From UHGV virus genome UHGV-1970859: a stretch of DNA of 23,107 nucleotides; one strand, given 5' to 3'. Position 1 is the stretch's first letter. Each line of letters starts with the position of its first letter. Below the pieces are notes generated by a model, which was not told the origin of the DNA, ran no database searches, and worked only from the letters and a program-made list of their open reading frames with translations. The DNA comes from a virus. A program made the position numbers and the translations under genes. Positions 11,202 through 22,100 of this stretch are shown here, one piece after another.

Positions 11202-12247
11202 TGAGCAGAAAAAATAAAAAAGTGCGCATGAGTTCACGCATTGATCTCGCTGATGCGCTCAGGAAAGAATCATCGCTCAGTGCATTCACATTTGATGGTC
11301 CTTATCGCCTGACCGGGCATGACCTGCTGGACAATATGTACTGTGCTGATAACGGGCGGTGGTATGAAACCCCGGTGGACTGGTACGGTCTGGCAAGAGC
11401 TGCCCGGCAAACGTCCTGGCATCAGTCTGCGCTTTACTTTAAGCGCAATGTATTGCTCGGCTGCTATATTCCGCACCCGCTGCTTTCCCGGCAGGATTTC
11501 TCGGCGCTGGCGCTGGACTGGTTTGTGTTCGGTAACGCATTCCTTGAGCTTCGAAGCAATATGCTCGGCGAACCGCTTAAATTACGGCACGCCCTGGCGA
11601 AATACATGCGACGCGGAAGCGATCTTGAATCATGGTGGTATGTGCAGGATGGCAAGGACGCGTTCCAGTTTCGCCCTGGCAAAGTGTGCCACCTGATGAA
11701 TCCGGATATTAACCAGGAAATCTACGGCATGCCGGAATATCTTGGCGCATTACTCTCGGCCAGCCTGTCTCATTCGGCGGACATGTTCAGAAAACTGTAT
11801 TACGACAACGGATCCCACGCCGGGTGCATCATCTACATCGGTGCAGCGCAGGTAAACCGCGAAAGCATGGACTCCCTGAAAGAAACGCTACAGGGTGCAC
11901 GTGGTGGTGGTGCGTTTAAAAACGTGCTCATTCATGCGCCCAACGGGGGCAAAGAGGGGGTGCAAATTTTGCCGTTCCAGCAGATCACCGCAAAGGATGA
12001 GTTCATGAATGTTAAGGTGGCATCCCGTGATGATGTGCTGGCTGCGCACCGCGTTCCGCCGCAACTGATGGGGGCGATGCCGGGCGAAAAAAGTGCGTTT
12101 GGTGATGTGGAGAAGGCCGCGCGGGTTTACGCAATTAACGAGCTGATGCCCGTCATGGAGGCCATGAAGCACATCAATGACTGGCTTGGCGAAGAGGTGA
12201 TCCGCTTTAACCCTTACGCGCTGCTGGACACCCAGCCCACATCCTGA
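11201..12247 (+). CDS. Q: Portal protein gpQ
   Basis: 348 aa, start overlaps the P stop (TGATG). Size and position match P2 gpQ. Confidence 0.9.
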   Translation: MSRKNKKVRMSSRIDLADALRKESSLSAFTFDGPYRLTGHDLLDNMYCADNGRWYETPVDWYGLARAARQTSWHQSALYFKRNVLLGCYIPHPLLSRQDFSALALDWFVFGNAFLELRSNMLGEPLKLRHALAKYMRRGSDLESWWYVQDGKDAFQFRPGKVCHLMNPDINQEIYGMPEYLGALLSASLSHSADMFRKLYYDNGSHAGCIIYIGAAQVNRESMDSLKETLQGARGGGAFKNVLIHAPNGGKEGVQILPFQQITAKDEFMNVKVASRDDVLAAHRVPPQLMGAMPGEKSAFGDVEKAARVYAINELMPVMEAMKHINDWLGEEVIRFNPYALLDTQPTS

Positions 12248-12274
12248 CGCGCTTCGCTTGTCTGCTGCTTCGCC

Positions 12275-12297
12275 GGGGCATAAAAAATTTATGCCCC
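12275..12297. repeat. Perfect hairpin GGGGCATAAA-AAA-TTTATGCCCC just downstream of Q
   Basis: 10-bp perfect inverted repeat with a 3-nt loop, 28 bp after the Q stop. No flanking T tract, so not a classical intrinsic terminator. Lies in the region where P2 has its cos/packaging sequences. Confidence 0.4.
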
Positions 12298-12723
12298 GAC
12301 TCTCCAGCTCTTGTATCAATCAGATAATTTCACGACGCTTTCCTGCTTATTGCCATCATCGACAGTCAGACTCTTACGCAATCCCACCGCGTTGACTGCA
12401 TGTTCTCGCCGTCTCAGTGCGATTTTGACGGCCTTACCTTTCACCCCATCAAATCAAAAGCCCTCACGTCTTTTTCACGCTCAGCGTGAGAAAGACAGCC
12501 ATTCTGTTCTATCTCTGCGACATCGTTCAGGGAATGCTATTTACCCCCTGAAACGCGGGCTGTTCCCCCGTCACCTGCGCGCAGAAAAAACGCGTTTTTT
12601 TGTGCACGCACGGATCCTTGGCGGATCCAGCCACCACGCGGGCCGGAAGGGCAAAAAGTCGTTCAAAAAAATTGTGCAAATTTGTGCACAATCTTGCATT
12701 AAAATCAACGTTCAGTGGATGTA

Positions 12724-12752
12724 TTTAAGCGAAAAAAAGATCTTTGTATAAT
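12724..12752 (+). promoter_or_regulatory. Candidate sigma70 promoter for the toxin-antitoxin operon
   Basis: TATAAT at about 12747-12752 with TG immediately upstream and a weak -35 (TTTAAG) 17 bp away, about 30 bp upstream of the toxin start. Three TTGTGCA repeats lie upstream at about 12598, 12672 and 12682. Confidence 0.3.
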
Positions 12753-12783
12753 TTCGTTCGGTTACGTTGGTGAGAGGTTCTGA

Positions 12784-13185
12784 GTGAAAGACATCACATA
12801 TTGGAATGATAAAATTCAGAAACAAATTGATAGTTATCCTGAAGCCGTTCGAGAAAGGATAAATTTTGAGCTTGTTGCACTGCAGAGCGATTGTCCTCAT
12901 TCTTTCGACAGTTTCGATTTTCCAGTGGATGGTGATGATGCCTTGGGGGTTCCACCGGCTCAAAAAAAATCAATGCGGGAAACGATTGGTCGCTACGCAA
13001 TGCAATTAACCATCAAGAGTAGTGATTCTTATCGTATGATTTACGTTGCGAAATTTGCGGAGTCTGTTTACATACTTCATACATTTAAGAAAAAGACAAA
13101 TGGTGTGTCAAAAAAAGAATATGAGACAGCTGCCGCAAGATACAAACAATTAGTGGAGTATCGTCGTAAAAATGGCTTAAGATAG
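12784..13185 (+). CDS. Type II toxin, RelE/HigB superfamily (Gp49-like, DUF891-type)
   Basis: 133 aa, GTG start with GAGAGG upstream. C-terminal YRMIYVAKFAESVYILHTFKKKTNGVSKKEYETAAARYKQL is characteristic of Gp49-like toxins. Followed by an XRE-HTH gene (toxin-first order as in HigBA). AT-rich relative to flanking phage genes. Confidence 0.6.
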   Translation: MKDITYWNDKIQKQIDSYPEAVRERINFELVALQSDCPHSFDSFDFPVDGDDALGVPPAQKKSMRETIGRYAMQLTIKSSDSYRMIYVAKFAESVYILHTFKKKTNGVSKKEYETAAARYKQLVEYRRKNGLR

Positions 13186-13255
13186 CTTGCAGGTATCTCA
13201 AATCTGATATAACATAATCAATGTCAGCAACATCGCTGATTAAGGCTGGAGAGTT

Positions 13256-13573
13256 ATGGAATTCGTCGTAGTTAAAAACCCTTATGCGTCATCAAGTAGC
13301 TCTGTAAATGAAGCTAGTGATAAACACATCCGGGCCCAATTAATGGTTATTATCCGAAAAATGATTCAGGAGCGCGGTCTTACCCAGCGAGAAGCTGCTG
13401 AATTGCTGGAAACAACCCAACCAAGAGTAAGCGAAATCATTAATGGTAAGTTAGATAATCATACCATTGATCGACTGTTTATCATGCTAAACATCCTGGG
13501 GTGGGATTTTAAGTTTGGGTATTCCGGTGGGGTTGTTACTGCGACGGCAGAACATTCCTGTCAGGTTGCATAA
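13256..13573 (+). CDS. Antitoxin, HTH XRE family (HigA-like)
   Basis: 105 aa. LTQREAAELLETTQPRVSEIINGKLDNHTIDRLFIMLNILG is an HTH pattern typical of antitoxins paired with Gp49-like toxins. GGAG Shine-Dalgarno. Confidence 0.6.
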   Translation: MEFVVVKNPYASSSSSVNEASDKHIRAQLMVIIRKMIQERGLTQREAAELLETTQPRVSEIINGKLDNHTIDRLFIMLNILGWDFKFGYSGGVVTATAEHSCQVA

Positions 13574-13580
13574 ATATTAA

Positions 13581-13613
13581 GCCCCTGACGGGGCCAACCG
13601 TCAGGGGCTTTTC
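13581..13613 (+). terminator. Rho-independent terminator after the antitoxin gene
   Basis: GCCCCTGACGG-GGCCAA-CCGTCAGGGGC, an 11-bp perfect GC-rich stem followed by TTTTC, 8 bp after the stop codon. Confidence 0.7.
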
Positions 13614-13738
13614 AACACAAAGAAATGATAGTCTGAGAAATATCATCACCTTGATGTTTTGCATGTACAACTGTGATTCTAGTCAATCCAGGCAGATAAT
13701 CAAGGTAAAAATCATTCTCAGTAAGGAGGTGATTATGG

Positions 13739-13888
13739 ATGGCTTTGAAATCAATTGTAAAAAAACCGGCTCCGAAAGGATTTCGTTGGCAGTTTTGCCG
13801 ATACCGTAAGGTTCGTGGTGATTCTGGTCGAAAGCTGGATGCTCATGAGTATGGCTGGAAAGCTTGGGCGTTTCTAGTGCGAAGCTGA
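13739..13888 (+). CDS. Small basic hypothetical protein (49 aa)
   Basis: Below the ORF-track size cutoff. Strong AGGAGG Shine-Dalgarno at 13724-13729. Own translation: MALKSIVKKPAPKGFRWQFCRYRKVRGDSGRKLDAHEYGWKAWAFLVRS. Has its own terminator hairpin 13 nt downstream. An alternative 24-aa frame starts at 13735. Confidence 0.35.
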   Translation: MALKSIVKKPAPKGFRWQFCRYRKVRGDSGRKLDAHEYGWKAWAFLVRS

Positions 13889-13901
13889 TATTTGATATTT
13901 A

Positions 13902-13925
13902 AAAGCATGGCGAAAGCCATGCTTT
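13902..13925. terminator. Bidirectional intrinsic terminator between the small ORF (plus) and parR (minus)
   Basis: AGCATGGC-GAAA-GCCATGCT, an 8-bp stem with a GNRA-type loop, T-rich on both sides. A second hairpin ATTCAGG-N8-CCTGAAT at about 13934-13955 is followed by TTCTTTTTTA. Confidence 0.55.
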
Positions 13926-13931
13926 TTGTGA

Positions 13932-14246
13932 TCATTCAGGAAAAAATTCCTGAATATTCTTTTTTATTTGACTTATATTCTGATTTTTGCAACCAACAGG
14001 CTCGCTGTTATGCCAGCCCCATATGTGATTGTTGGCAGGCATATTTTCCCCCTCTGACCATTCAGCCAGCCAGTAAGCAAAGGCAGGATCGTTTTTAATG
14101 AGTGCCAGTCCAGCCAGAAATGCCGCGCGTTGCGCGCGGCTGCGTTCGGAGGCTGGCAGGCTGTCGAGATAATTACACGCTTCCCGTTCACTCTTGACTG
14201 CAGCTGGCTTCAGATAGAAACTTATCCGTCTGGTTGGTGTCGTCAT
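13932..14246 (-). CDS. parR: ParR-like RHH centromere-binding adaptor
   Basis: Track ORF 13932..14381. Likely start is MTTPTRRISFYLKPAAV at 14246, with an AAGGAG Shine-Dalgarno inside the parM 3' end. N-terminal RRISFYLKP...YLDSLPASERSRAQRAAFLAGLALIKNDP resembles R1 ParR (RRTIAFKLNP...TLDSIPQGERSRLNRAALTAGLALYRQDP) as recalled from memory. Confidence 0.6.
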   Translation of the reverse strand: MTTPTRRISFYLKPAAVKSEREACNYLDSLPASERSRAQRAAFLAGLALIKNDPAFAYWLAEWSEGENMPANNHIWGWHNSEPVGCKNQNISQIKKNIQEFFPE

Positions 14247-14250
14247 TGGT

Positions 14251-15210
14251 TTACTCCTTGTCCATTGCGTACAGCCCATTAACCAGAGCAAACTGTGGCA
14301 CCCCGTCCGCGATGAAAGTCGCATTAACTCCGCAGGCTTCGCGGATAGCGGGGGCCACAATCTCCGCCCCGCCACCGACAACCATCACCCGCCCGTAACC
14401 CGAAAAACCCGCCAGCGCGCGGATCACGCGTTGTTTCAGTGTTTCTTCCTTTTCACGAATAACCGCCATCAGGCTGGCGTAATGCGCGTCATTGTGGATG
14501 TGCTGGCGCAGCCAGGCTTCATCATGGCGATGTTCGATAATGGTATTGGCGATGTGGTGACTGGTACGCATACCGTTAGTGGCCATCACCGACAGTACGG
14601 CATCGGCCATCAGGGAAACGCCTACGTGTGGATCGCAAAACACCTGGCTGATACCTACCAGTTGTCCCTGAACCTTTGCCACATCCAGCGTGGTTCCGCC
14701 TAAATCCACAATCAGCAGGGATTCAAACGGACTCATGTCAGCCAGTGCTTTAAAACCAGCCGGAATGGATTCAGGCATAACCCGTACGTTACGGATAGTG
14801 AATGCTTTTCCGTTCTGGTACGCCACCGGGCGCATGACGTTTGCTTTTTTGCGGTTGATGTTGGCCATGTCCGGCTGTGCGTTTGTGTCGAAATATTCGC
14901 TCAGTGGCAGGGTGACAACCACATCCACTTCCTGTGGTGTGATGCCTGATTTGACCAGCGCGTGATGAATGGCAATGACATTCACATCGCTGTACTGGTA
15001 TTGCGTGTCGGTCGTCTGGACAAAGCGATCGCTGACCGGATCAAAACCATAGCGCACGCCATCAAGCATGTAGTTTGCGGGCTGCGTGCCACCGAACGGC
15101 GCAGACCATTCCGACTTGAAGCTGTTCGGGCTGATGGCGTTGCGGCGTTCGCCGTTCTCAGTCCATGCCAGCTTGATGTTGGTGGAGCCGTCATCGATAC
15201 AAATTTTCAT
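14251..15210 (-). CDS. parM: ParM/StbA-family actin-like segregation ATPase
   Basis: 319 aa. MKICIDDGSTNIKLAW, ISPNSFKSEW, YSDVNVIAIHHAL, VMPESIPAG, LLIVDLGGTTLD, FSGYGRVMVVGGGAE and LVNGLYAM match the R1 ParM motifs (phosphate 1, adenosine and phosphate 2 elements of the actin fold), as recalled from memory. Confidence 0.85.
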   Translation of the reverse strand: MKICIDDGSTNIKLAWTENGERRNAISPNSFKSEWSAPFGGTQPANYMLDGVRYGFDPVSDRFVQTTDTQYQYSDVNVIAIHHALVKSGITPQEVDVVVTLPLSEYFDTNAQPDMANINRKKANVMRPVAYQNGKAFTIRNVRVMPESIPAGFKALADMSPFESLLIVDLGGTTLDVAKVQGQLVGISQVFCDPHVGVSLMADAVLSVMATNGMRTSHHIANTIIEHRHDEAWLRQHIHNDAHYASLMAVIREKEETLKQRVIRALAGFSGYGRVMVVGGGAEIVAPAIREACGVNATFIADGVPQFALVNGLYAMDKE

Positions 15211-15240
15211 GTCGCTTTTCCTTATGTTGATTAATTAATC

Positions 15241-15278
15241 GTTTACGGGATTCTGAAATCCCGTTTTTGCCTGTTTTA
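15241..15278. repeat. Repeat unit 1 containing the 20-bp palindrome ACGGGATT-CTGA-AATCCCGT (about 15245-15264)
   Basis: Lies in the 76-bp gap between the A stop and the parM start, so within the parM promoter/leader region. Confidence 0.5.
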
Positions 15279-15286
15279 TGCGCGCT

Positions 15287-18154
15287 TCATATATCGCGGC
15301 GCGTTTTTTGCTCATTTACGGGATTTGTGAATCCCGTTTCTGTCTGTTTTTTGTTTCCACTGGTCAGGCCACCCCGCAGCAGGTCTGCTTTGCGGCGGGC
15401 GCGTTCAGTGGTTTCACTGATTCTCTGTGCGTGCTCTGCGTCGCGGATGGCGCGCAGCATGTCAGAAAGCACGGTAACGGGTGTTTTCATGGTGTTCTGG
15501 TCTTGCTGAAGTGTGGATGCCAGGCGTGCGGCGGCTTCGGGGTCTGATGCCCCCAGCTGTTCCAGATAGCTGGCGACCGGGTTATGGCGGATCTCCGTGC
15601 TGCTTACGCCGTGGTTACGGCTCAGGCGCTGCCAGAGCTGCGTGATCCGGCTGTCCGGTCTGGTATCCGGTTTGCGTACAATTTCAAATCCCTGCGGTGC
15701 AATGATGCTGCCGTCAACGTACAGACTGCCGCCCCGTAACAGGTGCTGCATCTGTTGTTCACCGATATGCAGGCCGAGAGATTCAGCAGACTCCCGCCAT
15801 TCTTTAGCGAGTAATTCGTGGTTATCAGGCAAAGGCCGCTGCTGTTTGCGGCTCTGTGTCCAGCTCTGCATTTCATCACTGCTGTTTTTTGCCTGTTTGT
15901 CACGAAGCGAACGCATCAGCGCCCGGCGTTCGTGCCGTTTCAGTGAGCGCATCCATTCGTTCACTTCAACGCCGTCAGGGAGCTGCGGCCACGGTGCTGG
16001 CCGTTCTTCCGGCTGTTCTGTCCCGTTGTTGTCCGTTTCCTGTACACGGGGACAGTTATTGCCACGAGTCCAAGGGGCGGCAGGGCCGCCCTGAAGGTCA
16101 AAACCATTTTCGCGGGCGCTGTCTTCCGCTTCCGGTTTGCGTCTTACCAGCTTCCAGTTATCCGGATGCGTGCATACGCGGGAAGACTCCCCAATGAGCG
16201 GCGACCAGATCCCGTAAATCTGTACACTCTGCTCGCCGTAATCGTTCAGCTCATCTGCGAGGTCGTAGGCTGTGCGAATCAGGTAGTCCTTGCGCGGAAC
16301 AAGTACGCCACCCTGTTTTTCAATGTAGGTGGCAAAACATCCGGCATCAGCGGCAGCGAGTACCGCATCCATTGCGTCATCCTTCAGCCGTTGCGGGCCT
16401 TCCGGGTTGCGTGCCATCTGGCTGGCAAGGCGGCGGAGTTCACGCCACACCTGACGGGAGGGGATGCCAAAGAACTGGAACTGGCGGACCCGGTGAAGGC
16501 GCGCCCAGCCGATGGCACGCTCCACGCTCTCGGCCATTGATTTACCTGTTTCGTGGTCAACGCGTGGCTTGCCCGTTTTCGGGTCGATGCCATCCACGGC
16601 ACGGCTGTCCAGGTTTTTCCCGATGTAGGTGGCGATGTAGCTGGTCGGTGTGCCTTTTGAGCCGTCGACGTACTCTGCCTTAAAGCGTGGGGTAATATCA
16701 TCACCCAGCTCGTGACGATCTTCCTGAATGGCAATATCGCGGGTGTGGGACACAATGGTGTCGATTTCTTCCGGATGAGCAAAGACCATCATATGCCAGT
16801 GCACGGTGCCGTCATGGTGAGGCTCCACCGTGCGGATGCCATACCAGCGCAGGCCGTCGCGGTTCAGTTTCTTGCGGACTGCCGCAAAAAACGTGTTAAC
16901 CAGGTAATCGCTGGAGTCGCGCATGGTGGCCCCGTTCCATTTGGGATTCTGATGACCGTTCTCTGTTGTGGCGTGGTATTTTGACGGGCAGGTGACAGTC
17001 AGAAACACCGCTTTGTCGCCACGGGCTTCGGCCAGAAGTTCCAGTCCCTTCATGGTGGCCATCATTTCTGCCTTACGGTGAACCGGGTTACTTACTCCCG
17101 CGTAATACACTGTCTCGAGATCAATCGTGAACCCGTCTTCATTTTCCAGCATGAAACTTTTCAGGAAATCGCGTGTTTTCTCGCGCTGTGCGCGAAACTC
17201 GCTTAACGCGTCCTGGCTCAGATAAGGCGATGTTTTTCTGGAAACCAGACAGGCGGCGCGGAGTTGTTCTTCTCTCCACTCGCAACGTAACAGCCACAGT
17301 TTGCGTTTCCACCATTCCGCACAGGTCAGGCGAAGGATTGCACCCGGCAGCAGCTCTGTGTCCGGTTCGTTCCTCCGGTCTTTGTCTGTTGTCAGTACGT
17401 CATAATGCGGAGGCATGGCGTGCAGGTGTAACGCCATGCGGGCCAGCATCTGATACGCCTTCAGGGTTACATCCATGGTCAGCTCGCCATCGGTCGCGCC
17501 AAAGCCATCGCAGAGTTTTTCGAAGGTGCTGCTGAACATCGCCGCCGTCATGGTGGCCAGCGTCTGTATCTGGTGTTTGTTGAGCTGCGGCAGGTAAAGC
17601 AAATCGTCCAGGCGCTCGCGTCCGGCAAGGGAGCGATAACCCGGTGTCAGCCAGCGTCCGTCAGTGCGATCCAGACGTTCGAATATTTTGCGCAGGGTTC
17701 CGCGTGCATAGCGTTCCGCCTGCCAGTTCTTTTTGCCTTTCTGACGATCGGCTTCCTGCTTCTTGCGCAGAAAAGAGAGGTGGCGGCTCAGAGGTTCACG
17801 CAGATAAACGGGAAGCACCTTCAGTGTGGCAAAAGCACGGGCCACCGGGTCTTGTTCTGTTGCCTGACGCTTGCTGATGATGCTTTGTGTCAGCTTTTCA
17901 CGCTGTCCGGCTTCCTCAAGGGATGCCATGAGTTTTTTACCCACGGTGGATTGTGCGAAAAAGGCTTCCTCCTTCGCTTCCTGTTCTTCCAGGGCCTTTT
18001 TGTCTGCTTCAAGGTAGTAACGGATGGCGCGTTGCAGGTCGGTTTCAGTTTCCTGCCTGCGCTCCGTAAATCTGGCCGGATCAATGGCTGGCCGTGGTTC
18101 ATTCCAGCTCCATGCAAACTCACTCATGGCTGGTATCCCGTCACGTGCTGCCAC
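15287..18154 (-). CDS. A: Replication initiation protein gpA (HUH rolling-circle endonuclease)
   Basis: 955-aa ORF. [21 protein letters not shown] (HUH motif) and [13 protein letters not shown] (paired catalytic tyrosines) resemble P2 gpA ([35 protein letters not shown]). Track start is GTG at 18154; an ATG at 18127 is coupled (ATGA) to the upstream gene stop and may be the true start. Confidence 0.9.
   Translation of the reverse strand: [955 protein letters not shown]
15313..15351. repeat. Repeat unit 2 containing the palindrome ACGGGATT-TGTG-AATCCCGT (about 15318-15337)
   Basis: Near-identical to unit 1 including flanks (TTTACGGGATT...AATCCCGTTT.TG.CTGTTTT), 73 bp away. Lies within the last codons of A. 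Confidence 0.5.
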
Positions 18155-20577: not shown

Positions 20578-20652
20578 AGTGGTATATTGTGATCATCTAA
20601 TAGCTCGTGAAATCATTTTGGTATCAAAAAAGATACCTGTCAAGGTTTTTGT
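20578..20652. promoter_or_regulatory. Lysis-lysogeny switch region (divergent genes, expected face-to-face promoters and operators)
   Basis: 75-bp gap between the early operon and the repressor gene. TGGTAT(C) repeats at about 20553, 20580 and 20619, and an inverted pair GGTATC-AAAAAA-GATACC at about 20620-20637. TATATT -10-like hexamer. Confidence 0.4.
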
Positions 20653-21057
20653 ATGAAAAATGATATTGGTCAGCGGTTGCGTGAGGAAAGGGAAAGATTG
20701 GGACTTAGTCAAGTTGCTATGAGCGACATTGGTGGAGTCAAAAAGCTAACTCAGCTTAGATATGAGAAAGGAGATAGCTTTCCTGATGCTGCGTATTTGG
20801 CAGCGCTGTCTCGTTTTGGCCTTGATGTTCAGTATGTTGTGTTGGGAATTCACTCACCTGAAACTTATAACGATGATGAGCAGGAGCTGATTACTCGCTT
20901 TCGAGCAGCTTCGTTAGATGTGAAAAACGCCGTGATCGGGGCTTTAAAAGGTGCGATCAGTGAAAAGGAAACTCAGCCATCAGGACGTGAGTTAAATATT
21001 TCTGGTGGTAATAACCGTATCGCTGGTCGTGACTATAACGAAACTAAGGGTAGGTGA
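20653..21057 (+). CDS. Immunity repressor (C-like), XRE-family HTH
   Basis: 134 aa. N-terminal GQRLREERERLGLSQVAMSDIGGVKKLTQLRYEKGDSFPDAAYLAALSRFGLDV is a classic XRE HTH. Divergent from the early operon and on the same strand as int, as for P2 C / 186 cI. Confidence 0.7.
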   Translation: MKNDIGQRLREERERLGLSQVAMSDIGGVKKLTQLRYEKGDSFPDAAYLAALSRFGLDVQYVVLGIHSPETYNDDEQELITRFRAASLDVKNAVIGALKGAISEKETQPSGRELNISGGNNRIAGRDYNETKGR

Positions 21058-21072: not shown

Positions 21073-21723
21073 ATGGCCGTCAACTCAAACGGTTCAAACA
21101 ATCGCGTTGCTGGACGTGATTTTCACGAAAAGAATATTCAGATAGCGCGATATGATGGTTCTCATACCGTCAATATCGCAATCCCTTCGAATAATGATGA
21201 TGACGATCGCCCTTTGCTTAAGGCTCAGCGTAAGGAGCTAAATAGCTTGGTTGCTGCTATTGCAGAAGCTAGCAATACTGAAGCGTTTATTATTTGGCAA
21301 AAAGTACATGCGGAGATTGGTGTAGCTGGTATTGATGATATGACAGTAAATCAATATAAAACAGCGGAGAGTTTTCTGCATGCAATGCTTGAGCGATGTA
21401 AAGATCATGATGCCTGTAAGACTCTTGTAAGTTTATTACTACGTAACAGTGAAGACTGTGGACTTCGACAAAAACTTCTGCGGTATTGCCATATCAATTT
21501 CGGTACAGGACGTTTAAACGATCTTACTCGTTCTCAGTTACAGTCTGCATTGTCGTGGTTAGAGCAACAATCGGTATCAAGCCATACAGAGAATTCGACC
21601 TTACCAGAAGTCCGACTTCGTGCTTCAGAATTAATCCGACTTTATCCAAAAGAAATAATATTCTTTATCTGCGTAGGGGTTTTGGTAGGCGGTGCCATTT
21701 CTAGGGTGTTTTTTAATTTGTAA
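21073..21723 (+). CDS. Hypothetical tail-anchored membrane protein (216 aa) in the lysogenic operon
   Basis: GGGAGGTG Shine-Dalgarno. Low-complexity N-terminus (NNDDDD), helical central region, C-terminal TM segment IIFFICVGVLVGGAISRVFF. Its N-terminus repeats a motif from the repressor C-terminus. Confidence 0.5.
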   Translation: MAVNSNGSNNRVAGRDFHEKNIQIARYDGSHTVNIAIPSNNDDDDRPLLKAQRKELNSLVAAIAEASNTEAFIIWQKVHAEIGVAGIDDMTVNQYKTAESFLHAMLERCKDHDACKTLVSLLLRNSEDCGLRQKLLRYCHINFGTGRLNDLTRSQLQSALSWLEQQSVSSHTENSTLPEVRLRASELIRLYPKEIIFFICVGVLVGGAISRVFFNL

Positions 21724-21752
21724 TCTTACTTGAGCTAAATTGAGGTAATGAT

Positions 21753-22100
21753 ATGAAAGTAAAAAAGGTTCAACTATTAGTTACTTTTTTATCTATGTTT
21801 TCTTTTTCCGCCGTCGCAATGCCTTTTAAAAATATTGAACGTGAGAGTTTCAATGGGGTATGGCCATTTAATACTGATGAGGTTCAATTACAGTGTCTTG
21901 ATGGTAATCCTTATGTGATGAATTTTGACGATAATAAGTTATATGCGCTTACAGGTTTGGCTCGAATAAAAGGTAAAACATTTGGTGCGTTACCGTTAGA
22001 TAACAATAATCCATTTTGGCTAGATAATGATGCCGCCCCAGGGTTAAAAAAGAGTCTGGGGGATGTCACTAAGGCTGCATTTGATTTATGTGATAAGTAA
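21753..22100 (+). CDS. Secreted YebY-like (DUF2511) protein
   Basis: 115 aa with signal peptide (MKVKKVQLLVTFLSMFSFSAVA). NGVWPFNTDEVQLQC...PYVMNF and C-terminal AAFDLC resemble E. coli YebY (AWPFTREEVMLTC...LYVINP...LC) as recalled from memory. AT-rich. Confidence 0.55.
   Translation: MKVKKVQLLVTFLSMFSFSAVAMPFKNIERESFNGVWPFNTDEVQLQCLDGNPYVMNFDDNKLYALTGLARIKGKTFGALPLDNNNPFWLDNDAAPGLKKSLGDVTKAAFDLCDK

What the first reader, a model, noticed from the sequence alone, without database searches (positions are those of the whole stretch)
13932..15210. R1-type ParM actin-like ATPase and ParR adaptor inside an integrase-carrying P2-like phage
The 319-aa protein carries the full set of ParM motifs (IDDGSTNIKL, YSDVNV...HHAL, VMPESIPAG, DLGGTTLD, GGGAE) and the downstream 104-aa protein matches the ParR RHH N-terminus, with translational coupling through an AAGGAG inside the parM 3' end. 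A type II plasmid-partition machine is unexpected in a phage that also encodes an integrase and P2-type rolling-circle replication. Possibilities: (i) the element can persist as a phage-plasmid; (ii) the actin-like filament positions phage DNA or virions; (iii) the cassette has been co-opted in the defence hotspot, for example to exclude incoming plasmids or phages.
Basis: partly seen in the sequence, partly recalled or inferred. Interest (0 to 1): 0.75.

Follow-up and report, generated by a model that had tools for sequence, protein, structure and literature searches.

The report
Plasmid-type ParMR module in P2-like phage
A P2-like temperate E. coli phage of the P88 group carries an intact plasmid-style actin-like DNA-segregation cassette next to its replication gene; it is real and conserved, but it is already annotated and discussed in the literature, and its role in the phage is untested.

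Summary
Window 14251-15210 (-) encodes a 319-aa ParM: 47% identical to plasmid R1 ParM, PDB E=4e-92, model TM 0.95 to 4A62, with D6/E148/D170 conserved. Window 13932-14246 (-) encodes a 104-aa ParR with a ribbon-helix-helix N-terminus and a ParM-binding-type C-terminus. The two genes are 4 nt apart, and the parR Shine-Dalgarno lies in the last parM codons.

The element is a P88-like (Xuanwuvirus) P2-family phage. parM and parR are already annotated there. Two papers already suggest an episomal state (Rousset 2022; Pfeifer 2020 preprint).

New here:
- Phage-borne ParMs form their own clade, always directly downstream of replication gene A, in E. coli, Plesiomonas, Hafnia, Serratia and Enterobacter phages.
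- parM dN/dS is 0.05. ParR has constrained ends and a hypervariable linker.
- The candidate centromere is two GGG..CCC dyads 72-73 bp apart upstream of parM. It is unlike R1's ten iterons.
- 1441 of 1443 copies in complete E. coli genomes are chromosomal.

The cassette is the conserved flank of the defence hotspot, not its cargo.

Best reading: a functional ParMRC expressed with the early operon that moves extrachromosomal phage circles transiently, as SXT/R391 SrpMRC and CGP3 AlpAC do. A stable plasmid life is poorly supported. Known kind; modest interest.

The parts
14251..15210 (-). parM: 319-aa actin-like (ASKHA) segregation ATPase
   Evidence: Pfam StbA_N 273 bits plus ParM C-terminal domain 229 bits. 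PDB R1 ParM E=4e-92. Model TM 0.95 to 4A62_A. D6, E148 and D170 (R1 numbering) are conserved. dN/dS is 0.054 across 71 distinct alleles.
13932..14246 (-). parR: 104-aa adaptor with an N-terminal ribbon-helix-helix, a variable linker and a C-terminal KKNIQEFFPE tail
   Evidence: Pfam Plasmid_stab_B 89.9 bits. Profile match to pB171 ParR 2jd3 at E=5e-13. The beta-strand TRRISFYLKP is invariant in nearly all phage alleles, and the C-terminal xxNIxxFFPE is conserved and aligns with R1 KKNAMKLIN. Omega is 0.11 for the N-terminus, 0.5-0.6 for the linker and 0.03-0.14 for the C-terminus.
14254..14259 (-). AAGGAG Shine-Dalgarno for parR, formed by the last two sense codons of parM; the stop-to-start gap is 4 nt
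   Evidence: Read directly from the sequence.
15245..15264 (.). Proximal dyad ACGGGATT-N4-AATCCCGT, 35-54 nt upstream of the parM ATG; candidate ParR operator and half of the centromere (parC-like)
   Evidence: this and the distal dyad are the only two exact copies in the window. The GGGATT..AATCC core is conserved in 81 related loci. Equivalent dyads occur at -60 and -55 in the Plesiomonas and Hafnia phages.
15318..15337 (.). Distal dyad ACGGGATT-N4-AATCCCGT, 73 bp from the proximal one, inside the last codons of gene A
   Evidence: The 72-73 bp spacing is conserved in phages whose ParMs are only 60-62% identical.
15239..15353 (.). Span holding the two 42-nt direct repeats (15239-15280 and 15312-15353, 81% identical) that carry the dyads and their A-rich flanks
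   Evidence: the repeat finder family D1.
13901..13926 (.). Bidirectional hairpin terminator immediately after parR
   Evidence: 11-bp perfect inverted repeat. RNA fold -18.2 kcal/mol, z -5.2 on the parR sense strand, followed by UUUU.
15287..18154 (-). Gene A, the P2-type rolling-circle replication initiator, directly upstream of and co-oriented with parM (76-nt gap)
   Evidence: Pfam Phage_GPA 438 bits. No terminator-like site on the minus strand between A and parM.
20615..20643 (-). Early-promoter-like site (TTGACA-17-CAAAAT) at the head of the leftward operon that ends with parMR
   Evidence: Consensus scan only. That it drives parMR is an inference.

Best explanation
This is a functional type II (ParMRC) DNA-segregation module. 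It is a long-standing, lineage-specific part of P88-like and related P2-family phages. It is neither hotspot cargo nor a recent plasmid capture.

Proposed mechanism:
- ParR dimers bind the two GGGATT-N4-AATCC dyads upstream of parM, about seven helical turns apart.
- The conserved C-terminal tail of ParR captures the growing ends of ATP-ParM filaments.
- The filaments push apart sister copies of the circular phage genome.

parMR are the last genes of the early (cox...A) transcription unit. The machine is therefore made when the genome is extrachromosomal and replicating: after infection before integration, and after excision. It is silent in the repressed, integrated prophage.

Its likely benefit is to distribute or separate the monomeric circles. 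That would make replication, packaging and lysogen establishment more efficient, and fewer cells would lose the element. SXT/R391 SrpMRC and CGP3 AlpAC provide the precedents.

What is shown and what is inferred:
- Shown: identity, intactness, conservation, synteny and selection.
- Inferred: ParR binding to the dyads, co-transcription with A, and the biological pay-off.
For: Identity and intactness:
- ParM matches R1 ParM over its full length, and catalytic D6/E148/D170 are conserved.
- ParR has an RHH N-terminus and an R1-like C-terminal tail.

Selection:
- parM dN/dS is 0.054.
- The ParR ends are constrained and the linker relaxed, as expected for an adaptor.
- All 86 parM copies examined are full length.

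Old, phage-specific association:
- Every ParM at least 54% identical to this one lies next to P2 gene A, in E. coli, Plesiomonas, Hafnia, Serratia and Enterobacter (the portal and terminase genes are also present wherever the contig extends far enough). Every ParM at 52% or below does not.
- The phage ParMs form one clade in an NJ tree of 116 sequences.

Cis sites:
- The window holds two exact dyads and no others.
- Their core is conserved in 81 loci.
- The two-dyad layout at 72-73 bp is conserved across phages with 60-62% identical ParMs.
- SrpC, a proven centromere, likewise has only four short repeats.

Transcription layout: the genes are co-oriented, the gap after A is 76 nt with no sense-strand terminator, and a strong terminator follows parR.

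Precedents:
- SrpMRC stabilises an integrative element that replicates by rolling circle in its excised state.
- AlpAC are early genes needed for full levels of circular phage DNA.

Integrated state is the norm: 1441 of 1443 copies are chromosomal.
Against: - No experiment on this cassette was found in the searchable literature.
- Only two dyads are present, against ten iterons in R1. The E. coli-clade ParR also lacks an ~11-residue segment after the RHH that R1, pB171 and other phage ParRs have. Assembly of a full ParR ring on the DNA is therefore doubtful.
- On the + strand the dyads also score as terminator-like hairpins followed by T-runs, so a non-ParR role is possible.
- No convincing sigma-70 promoter was found near parM, and co-transcription with A is inferred from layout only.
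- P2 and 186 do well without such a system, so any benefit may be small.
Confidence: 0.55

Rival explanations
1. Phage-plasmid lifestyle. ParMRC lets these phages persist for many generations as low-copy plasmids, as an alternative to integration. This is the suggestion of Rousset 2022 and Pfeifer 2020.
For: - The ParMRC cassette is complete and under purifying selection.
- Toxin-antitoxin modules often sit beside it: Gp49/HigB-like plus an HTH antitoxin here, and HicAB in the Serratia phage.
- One 34,461-bp circular record is an entire P88-like phage.
- The idea is stated in the literature.
- Phage-plasmid D6 carries an R1-type ParM.
Against: - 1441 of 1443 copies in 5426 complete E. coli genomes are chromosomal.
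- Only 12 PLSDB records carry P2-like structural genes, and most are very large replicons.
- A P2-like phage without parMR (pENTAS02) is also deposited as a circular plasmid, so such records are not specific to parMR.
- A 99.9% identical copy of the hotspool-to-parM stretch of the 'plasmid' phage (portal gene end to parM) lies integrated in another strain.
- An integrase is present in every complete example examined.
- The only replication gene found is the P2-type rolling-circle initiator, which sits in the repressible early operon.
Confidence: 0.2
2. Exclusion or incompatibility function. Prophage-expressed ParR/ParM interferes with incoming plasmids or related phages that use the same centromere, or the cassette acts as a defence system in the P2 hotspot.
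For: - The cassette lies in the gpA-gpQ interval, which is a documented defence hotspot.
- parC-type sites are known, from general knowledge of R1 parC, to exert incompatibility.
Against: - Neither protein has a PADLOC match.
- The cassette is the invariant flank, not the variable cargo, in five genera.
- The dyads are unlike the R1 parC iterons.
- The layout predicts little expression in a repressed lysogen.
Confidence: 0.07
3. Regulatory or chromosomal role only. ParR serves mainly as a transcription factor at the end of gene A, or the system acts on the integrated locus, with no role in moving free phage DNA.
For: - ParR proteins are autorepressors in R1 (general knowledge).
- There are only two operator-like dyads, one of them inside gene A.
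- ParR lacks the segment after the RHH.
Against: - Strong purifying selection on the whole ParM ATPase (omega 0.054), with intact catalytic residues.
- The ParM-binding tail of ParR is conserved.
- Neither constraint would be needed for a pure regulator.
Confidence: 0.08
4. Decaying relic of an old plasmid-phage recombination that now has no function.
For: - Some database clusters hold truncated ParM fragments (261, 229 and 188 aa) with hundreds of members.
- P2 and 186 lack the cassette.
Against: - dN/dS is 0.054, and all 86 examined copies are full length.
- Synteny is conserved across genera at 54-62% identity.
Confidence: 0.03

Closest known systems
ParMRC (parA/stb locus) of plasmids R1/R100, the type II partition archetype
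   Same: - Same gene order, parM then parR, with tight coupling.
- ParM is 47% identical over its full length, with the same fold (TM 0.95) and catalytic residues.
- ParR has an RHH N-terminus and a KKN-type C-terminal tail.
- The repeats lie upstream of parM.
   Different: - The cis site is two 20-bp dyads 73 bp apart, not ten A/C-rich 11-bp iterons.
- ParR is shorter and lacks an ~11-residue segment after the RHH.
- The host replicon is an integrating, rolling-circle P2-like phage.
- The phage ParMs are a separate clade.
parM/parR of Escherichia phage P88 and other Xuanwuvirus (Peduoviridae), e.g. phiSM, 520873, P884B11
   Same: - Same module in the same slot.
- About 95-97% nucleotide identity over the matching parts (95.6-96.7% in the best records), and ParM 97-100% identical.
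- The genes are already annotated as ParM and partition protein.
   Different: - This window has the rarer ParR allele ('type 1': SLPASERS helix and its own linker). P88 has 'type 2', only about 54% identical overall.
- The cargo between parR and the portal gene differs: a HigB-like TA here.
SrpMRC of SXT/R391 integrative conjugative elements (Carraro et al. 2015, PMC4489591)
   Same: - An actin-type partition system on an element that normally sits in the chromosome, carries an integrase and replicates by rolling circle when excised.
- A small centromere of four short direct and inverted repeats upstream of the M gene.
- Expressed only when the element is activated.
   Different: - SrpM and SrpR are only distantly related to R1 ParM/ParR, whereas this cassette is a close R1 relative.
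- The host is an ICE, not a phage.
- SrpMRC function is experimentally shown; this one is not.
AlpAC/alpS of Corynebacterium glutamicum prophage CGP3 (Donovan et al. 2015, PMC4446434)
   Same: - An integrated prophage encodes an actin-like ATPase plus a DNA-binding adaptor whose sites lie in the operon's upstream region.
- They are early genes and link circular phage DNA to filaments.
   Different: - A different actin-like family with a different gene order.
- A Gram-positive host.
- The phenotype shown is a twofold drop in circular phage DNA.
StbA-type partition of phage-plasmid D6 (P1-like)
   Same: It is the only other group of deposited phage genomes with an R1-type ParM (53.8% identical to R1).
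   Different: D6 is annotated as a 91-kb phage with an StbA-type plasmid stability protein. From general knowledge it is a plasmid prophage with no need to integrate. The element here integrates.

Membership tests
Type II (ParMRC) plasmid partition system, R1 type | Actin-like ASKHA ATPase of the ParM/StbA family with intact nucleotide-binding and catalytic residues | tested here: met
   Pfam StbA_N and the ParM C-terminal domain score far above cut-off. R1 ParM E=4e-92. Model TM 0.95 to 4A62_A. D6, E148 and D170 are conserved.
Type II (ParMRC) plasmid partition system, R1 type | Small ribbon-helix-helix adaptor ParR encoded immediately downstream of parM | tested here: met
   Pfam Plasmid_stab_B 89.9 bits. 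Profile match to pB171 ParR 2jd3 E=5e-13. 4-nt gap with the SD inside parM.
Type II (ParMRC) plasmid partition system, R1 type | ParR C-terminal peptide that binds ParM | tested here: inconclusive
   The C-terminal IKKNIQEFFPE aligns with R1 TKKNAMKLIN. It is conserved in all phage alleles (omega 0.03-0.14) while the linker varies. Binding itself was not tested.
Type II (ParMRC) plasmid partition system, R1 type | Centromere parC: an array of repeated ParR sites upstream of parM that spans the promoter | tested here: inconclusive
   Two 20-bp dyads (four half-sites) 73 bp apart lie upstream of parM, and the layout is conserved in distant phage relatives. There are far fewer repeats than R1's ten, no sequence similarity to R1 parC, and no clear promoter between them.
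Type II (ParMRC) plasmid partition system, R1 type | Stabilises an unstable low-copy replicon; ParM forms dynamic filaments | not testable with these tools
   Needs plasmid-loss assays and microscopy or biochemistry.
Phage-plasmids (P1, N15, SSU5, D6 type) | The prophage is maintained as an autonomous extrachromosomal replicon | tested here: not met
   1441 of 1443 copies in complete E. coli genomes are on chromosomes. The single phage-sized circular record is matched by a parMR-less P2-like phage that is also deposited as a plasmid.
Phage-plasmids (P1, N15, SSU5, D6 type) | A plasmid-type replication module that is active in the lysogenic state | tested here: not met
   The only replication gene identified is the P2 Phage_GPA rolling-circle initiator, located in the early operon. 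An integrase is present.
Anti-phage defence systems of the P2 gpA-gpQ hotspot | Match to a known or candidate defence family, with variable presence as hotspot cargo | tested here: not met
   No PADLOC hit for ParM or ParR. The cassette is the conserved flank next to gene A, while the cargo between parR and gpQ varies.
Xuanwuvirus (P88-like Peduoviridae) | Close nucleotide similarity and synteny to phage P88 | tested here: met
   95-97% identity of the matching parts to P88-group phages. The order is the same: P, Q, cargo, parR, parM, A.

The most novel reading that the evidence does not exclude
A whole clade of integrating P2-family phages uses a minimal actin spindle: a ParM filament, a short ParR, and a two-dyad centromere that abuts or overlaps the 3' end of the replication gene in the lineages where A directly precedes parM. 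The spindle would be used during the brief extrachromosomal phase only. It would separate rolling-circle-derived monomer circles and so raise burst size or the chance that both daughter cells become lysogens. That would be the first cytoskeletal DNA-positioning system shown for a small Gram-negative temperate phage, and a natural minimal ParMRC.
Probability: 0.4. Interest if true: 0.55.

Novelty: already known. Interest (0 to 1): 0.3.

Why it matters
About a quarter of complete E. coli genomes carry this cassette inside a prophage, yet nobody appears to have tested what it does.

If it works during the extrachromosomal phase, it would extend two experimentally shown cases to the very common P2 family: ICE partition (SrpMRC) and prophage actin (AlpAC).

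It would also offer a compact two-site centromere for studying how few ParR sites a ParM spindle needs.

For annotation, 'plasmid segregation protein' on a chromosome here signals a P88-like prophage. It does not signal an integrated plasmid or a phage-plasmid.

Tried and rejected
- **Defence-system reading.** PADLOC gave no hits for ParM or ParR. Synteny shows the cassette is not variable cargo.
- **Other ASKHA family.** Rejected by PDB sequence and fold searches.
- **Structured RNA in 12200-15600.** Rfam gave only sub-threshold chance hits: His_leader at 28.6 bits against a 49-bit cut-off, and a miRNA model.
- **Similarity of the upstream region to R1 parC.** None beyond A-richness.
- **Compensatory changes in the dyads as evidence for an RNA hairpin.** Variation is mostly in the loop and at the outer positions, which is not informative.
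- **Covariation between ParR allele type and dyad sequence.** None was seen. Both allele types occur with identical upstream DNA, which fits the near-invariant beta-strand.
- **The circular 34.5-kb record as proof of a plasmid state.** The strain's own chromosome is not in the collection. A near-identical phage is integrated elsewhere, and a parMR-less control also exists as a 'plasmid'. The record proves nothing.
- **Own promoter for parM.** The consensus scan found none.
- **Literature searches for experiments on this cassette.** They found annotation-level mentions and two speculative sentences only.
- **One query sent to the wrong collection.** It still showed that R1-type ParM occurs in only two groups of deposited phages.
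- **ParR structure prediction.** Not run, because the alignment rows came from loci and were not admissible.
Full report
**What is there**

The minus strand of the window carries two tightly packed ORFs. One spans 14251-15210 (319 aa) and the other 13932-14246 (104 aa from its ATG).

The 319-aa protein is a ParM.
- It matches Pfam StbA_N at 273.5 bits and the ParM C-terminal domain at 229.3 bits.
- It aligns end to end with plasmid R1 ParM in the PDB at E=4.2e-92 and is 47% identical to it.
- An AlphaFold model built on 53 homologues (pLDDT 89.7, pTM 0.86) superposes best on 4A62_A, R1 ParM bound to the ParR C-terminal peptide, at TM 0.95 and rmsd 1.6 A.
- MreB and Hsp70 domains reach TM 0.63 at most.
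- Residues equivalent to R1 D6, E148 and D170 are conserved here and in four distant phage homologues. From general knowledge, the last two are the classic hydrolysis mutants.

The 104-aa protein is a ParR.
- It matches Pfam Plasmid_stab_B at 89.9 bits.
- As a family profile it matches the pB171 ParR structure 2jd3 at E=5.4e-13.

The parM stop and the parR start are 4 nt apart, and AAGGAG is formed by the last two parM codons.

**What element this is**

Gene A (15287-18154, minus strand; Phage_GPA 438 bits) lies 76 nt upstream of parM. The portal and terminase genes lie on the other side. A tyrosine integrase closes the window.

The region is about 95-97% identical, over its matching parts, to Escherichia phage P88 and other Xuanwuvirus (Peduoviridae). 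In those records the two genes are already annotated as ParM and partition protein. PHROGs holds both as 'partition protein' families.

The cassette occurs in 1303 of 5426 complete E. coli genomes.

**What the literature already says**

- Rousset et al. [quoted passage not shown]
- Pfeifer et al. flagged P88 in their phage-plasmid screen and suggested it has episomal and integrative states.
- The P88 and phiSM papers do not analyse the cassette.
- I found no experimental test.

**Is it cargo or core?**

ParM homologues fall into two groups with a gap between them.

I looked up the contexts of the nearest relatives outside the E. coli clade: Plesiomonas 62%, Hafnia 62%, Serratia 58% and Enterobacter 54%. 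All are P2-like prophages with the same order: gene A, zero to two small genes, parM, parR, variable genes, then portal.

In a scan of species-representative genomes, every ParM at least 54% identical lies next to a gene A homologue (with portal and terminase wherever the contig extends that far). None of the ParMs at 52% or below does.

In an NJ tree of 116 ParMs, the phage-context proteins form one clade of 15 tips. R1 and all 12 verified non-phage contexts fall outside it.

Among deposited phage genomes, R1-type ParM occurs only in the P88 group and in phage D6.

So parMR is an old, vertically kept module of a P2-family sub-lineage. It is the conserved flank of the gpA-gpQ hotspot, not its cargo. 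Neither protein matches PADLOC.

**Is it under selection?**

Across 71 distinct full-length parM alleles from 86 loci, dN/dS is 0.054.

ParR shows an informative pattern.
- Phages with 97-100% identical ParM carry at least two ParR alleles that are only about 52-54% identical overall.
- The beta-strand TRRISFYLKP is invariant in all but one of the alleles.
- The C-terminal NI(Q/R)xFFPE tail is kept and aligns with R1 KKNAMKLIN.
- Residues 65-92 are hypervariable.
- Omega is 0.11-0.12 for the N-terminus, 0.5-0.6 for the linker and 0.03-0.14 for the tail.

This is what an adaptor with a DNA-binding end, a ParM-binding end and a floppy tether should look like.

Homology breakpoints between E. coli prophages often fall inside parR (query starts at 152-293). 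The parR 3' half is therefore exchanged together with the hotspot cargo.

The E. coli-clade ParR also lacks an ~11-residue segment after the RHH that R1, pB171 and the other phage ParRs have.

**Cis sites**

Upstream of parM lie two 42-nt direct repeats, 81% identical. Each contains the dyad ACGGGATT-N4-AATCCCGT, at 15245-15264 and 15318-15337.
- These are the only two exact copies in the window.
- They are 73 bp apart.
- The distal one lies within the last codons of gene A.
- The GGGATT..AATCC core is conserved in 81 related loci, with variation mostly in the 4-nt centre.

The Plesiomonas and Hafnia phages have ParMs only 60-62% identical to this one. Each still has two GGG..CCC dyads at almost the same positions relative to the parM ATG:

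| Phage | Dyad positions (upstream of ATG) | Spacing |
|---|---|---|
| Window (E. coli) | -126 / -53 | 73 bp |
| Plesiomonas | -132 / -60 | 72 bp |
| Hafnia | -128 / -55 | 73 bp |

The Serratia and Enterobacter phages have a different ParR beta-strand (NRKISFYL). They carry instead a 14-20-nt inverted repeat; the Serratia phages add two 11-nt direct repeats.

This layout is unlike R1 parC, which consists of ten A/C-rich 11-bp iterons. It is closer to the four-repeat srpC of SXT/R391.

The dyads are my candidate ParR operator and centromere. ParR binding to them is inferred, not shown. On the + strand they also score as terminator-like hairpins. However, the Plesiomonas versions barely form hairpins, which favours protein binding.

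**Expression**

- No sigma-70-like promoter was found near parM, and no sense-strand terminator between A and parM.
- A good early-promoter-like site sits at 20643-20615, at the head of the leftward operon.
- A strong hairpin (-18.2 kcal/mol, z -5.2) follows parR.

I infer that parMR are the distal genes of the early replication operon. They would be made when the genome is free and replicating, and silent in a repressed lysogen.

**Integrated or episomal?**

- In complete E. coli genomes, 1441 of 1443 copies are on chromosomes.
- PLSDB holds only seven close matches. Most are on very large replicons; one is a 34,461-bp circle that is the whole phage, integrase included.
- A 99.9% identical copy of that phage's portal-to-parM stretch lies integrated in another strain from the same project.
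- As a control, PLSDB also holds a phage-sized circular P2-like genome with no parMR (pENTAS02). Such records are thus best read as excised replicative forms caught by assembly.
- A habitual plasmid lifestyle is not supported. A transient extrachromosomal role is not excluded.

**How it most likely works**

The best explanation is a working ParMRC that acts on free circular phage genomes during the early phase. ParR on the two dyads would capture ParM filament ends, and the filaments would push sister circles apart.

Two experimentally studied systems give the precedent.
- SrpMRC of SXT/R391 ICEs is an actin-type system in an integrase operon. It improves retention of an excised, rolling-circle-replicating element and stabilises a single-copy plasmid.
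- AlpAC of prophage CGP3 are early-induced genes. The adaptor binds upstream of the operon, and deletion halves circular phage DNA.

I cannot tell which pay-off applies here: more efficient replication and packaging, or better inheritance before integration.

Rival explanations are a stable phage-plasmid state, an exclusion or incompatibility function, a purely regulatory role, and a decaying relic. They are weighed in the rivals section.

**Verdict**

The finding is real, but it describes a known, annotated and already discussed feature. The added value here is:
- the demonstration that parMR is a phage-specific clade fixed next to gene A;
- the modular selection pattern of ParR;
- the conserved two-dyad candidate centromere;
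- the quantitative evidence against a habitual plasmid state.

Interest is modest. It would rise if experiments showed a cytoskeletal step in the P2-type life cycle.

Noticed in passing
window 12784-13573 (+): The variable cargo next to parR is a toxin-antitoxin-like pair: a 133-aa Gp49/HigB-like protein (Pfam Gp49, 50 bits) and a 105-aa HTH_37 protein. It is followed by a perfect 13-bp hairpin at 13579-13610. The Serratia relative carries HicA/HicB in the same slot. P88 carries other genes there.
   Followed up: partly
window 13633-13888: A small, very basic 49-aa ORF lies at 13739-13888 (+) with a strong AAGGAGG Shine-Dalgarno. It belongs to phrog_33859 (unknown function). Two minus-strand promoter-like sites (13761-13732, 13703-13676) and a 33-nt imperfect inverted repeat (13633-13721) overlap its leader. 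This may be an antisense-regulated small gene.
   Followed up: no
window 21073-22100 (+): Two extra genes sit between the repressor-like HTH gene (20653-21057) and the integrase: a 216-aa protein (phrog_5825, unknown function, with weaker similarity to a membrane-protein family) and a 115-aa DUF2511 protein. The P88-like phage pZ1323PEC0009-2 has none there. This is a second cargo site.
   Followed up: partly
window 13932-14246; loci L003-L082, L090-L092: ParR exists as at least two alleles that are only about 52-54% identical, in phages whose ParM is 97-100% identical. Homology breakpoints between prophages fall inside parR, so its 3' half is swapped together with the hotspot cargo.
   Followed up: yes
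window 13932-14246 vs L083/L084/L086/L087/L089: The E. coli-clade ParR lacks an ~11-residue segment after the ribbon-helix-helix (consensus ..isqirhlidsv..). That segment is present in R1, pB171 and the other phage ParRs. The loss may limit higher-order ParR assembly.
   Followed up: partly
L122 (NC_015969.1, Enterobacter soli pENTAS02, 32,574 bp): This record, deposited as a plasmid, is a complete P2-like phage genome with an integrase and no partition genes.
   Followed up: partly
L091 (NZ_JBQPOM010000071.1, labelled Vagococcus sp. WN89Y); L115 (Lachnospiraceae MAG): A 226-kb contig of a genome labelled as the Gram-positive Vagococcus carries this E. coli phage (ParM 97%, portal 99% identical). 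A Lachnospiraceae MAG contig carries an enterobacterial-type ParM. Both look like contamination or mislabelling.
   Followed up: no
window 15287-15340: The distal dyad is dual-coded: it lies within the last ~16 codons of replication gene A (..ETGFTNPVNEQKTRRDI*). The candidate centromere therefore overlaps the 3' end of the initiator gene.
   Followed up: partly
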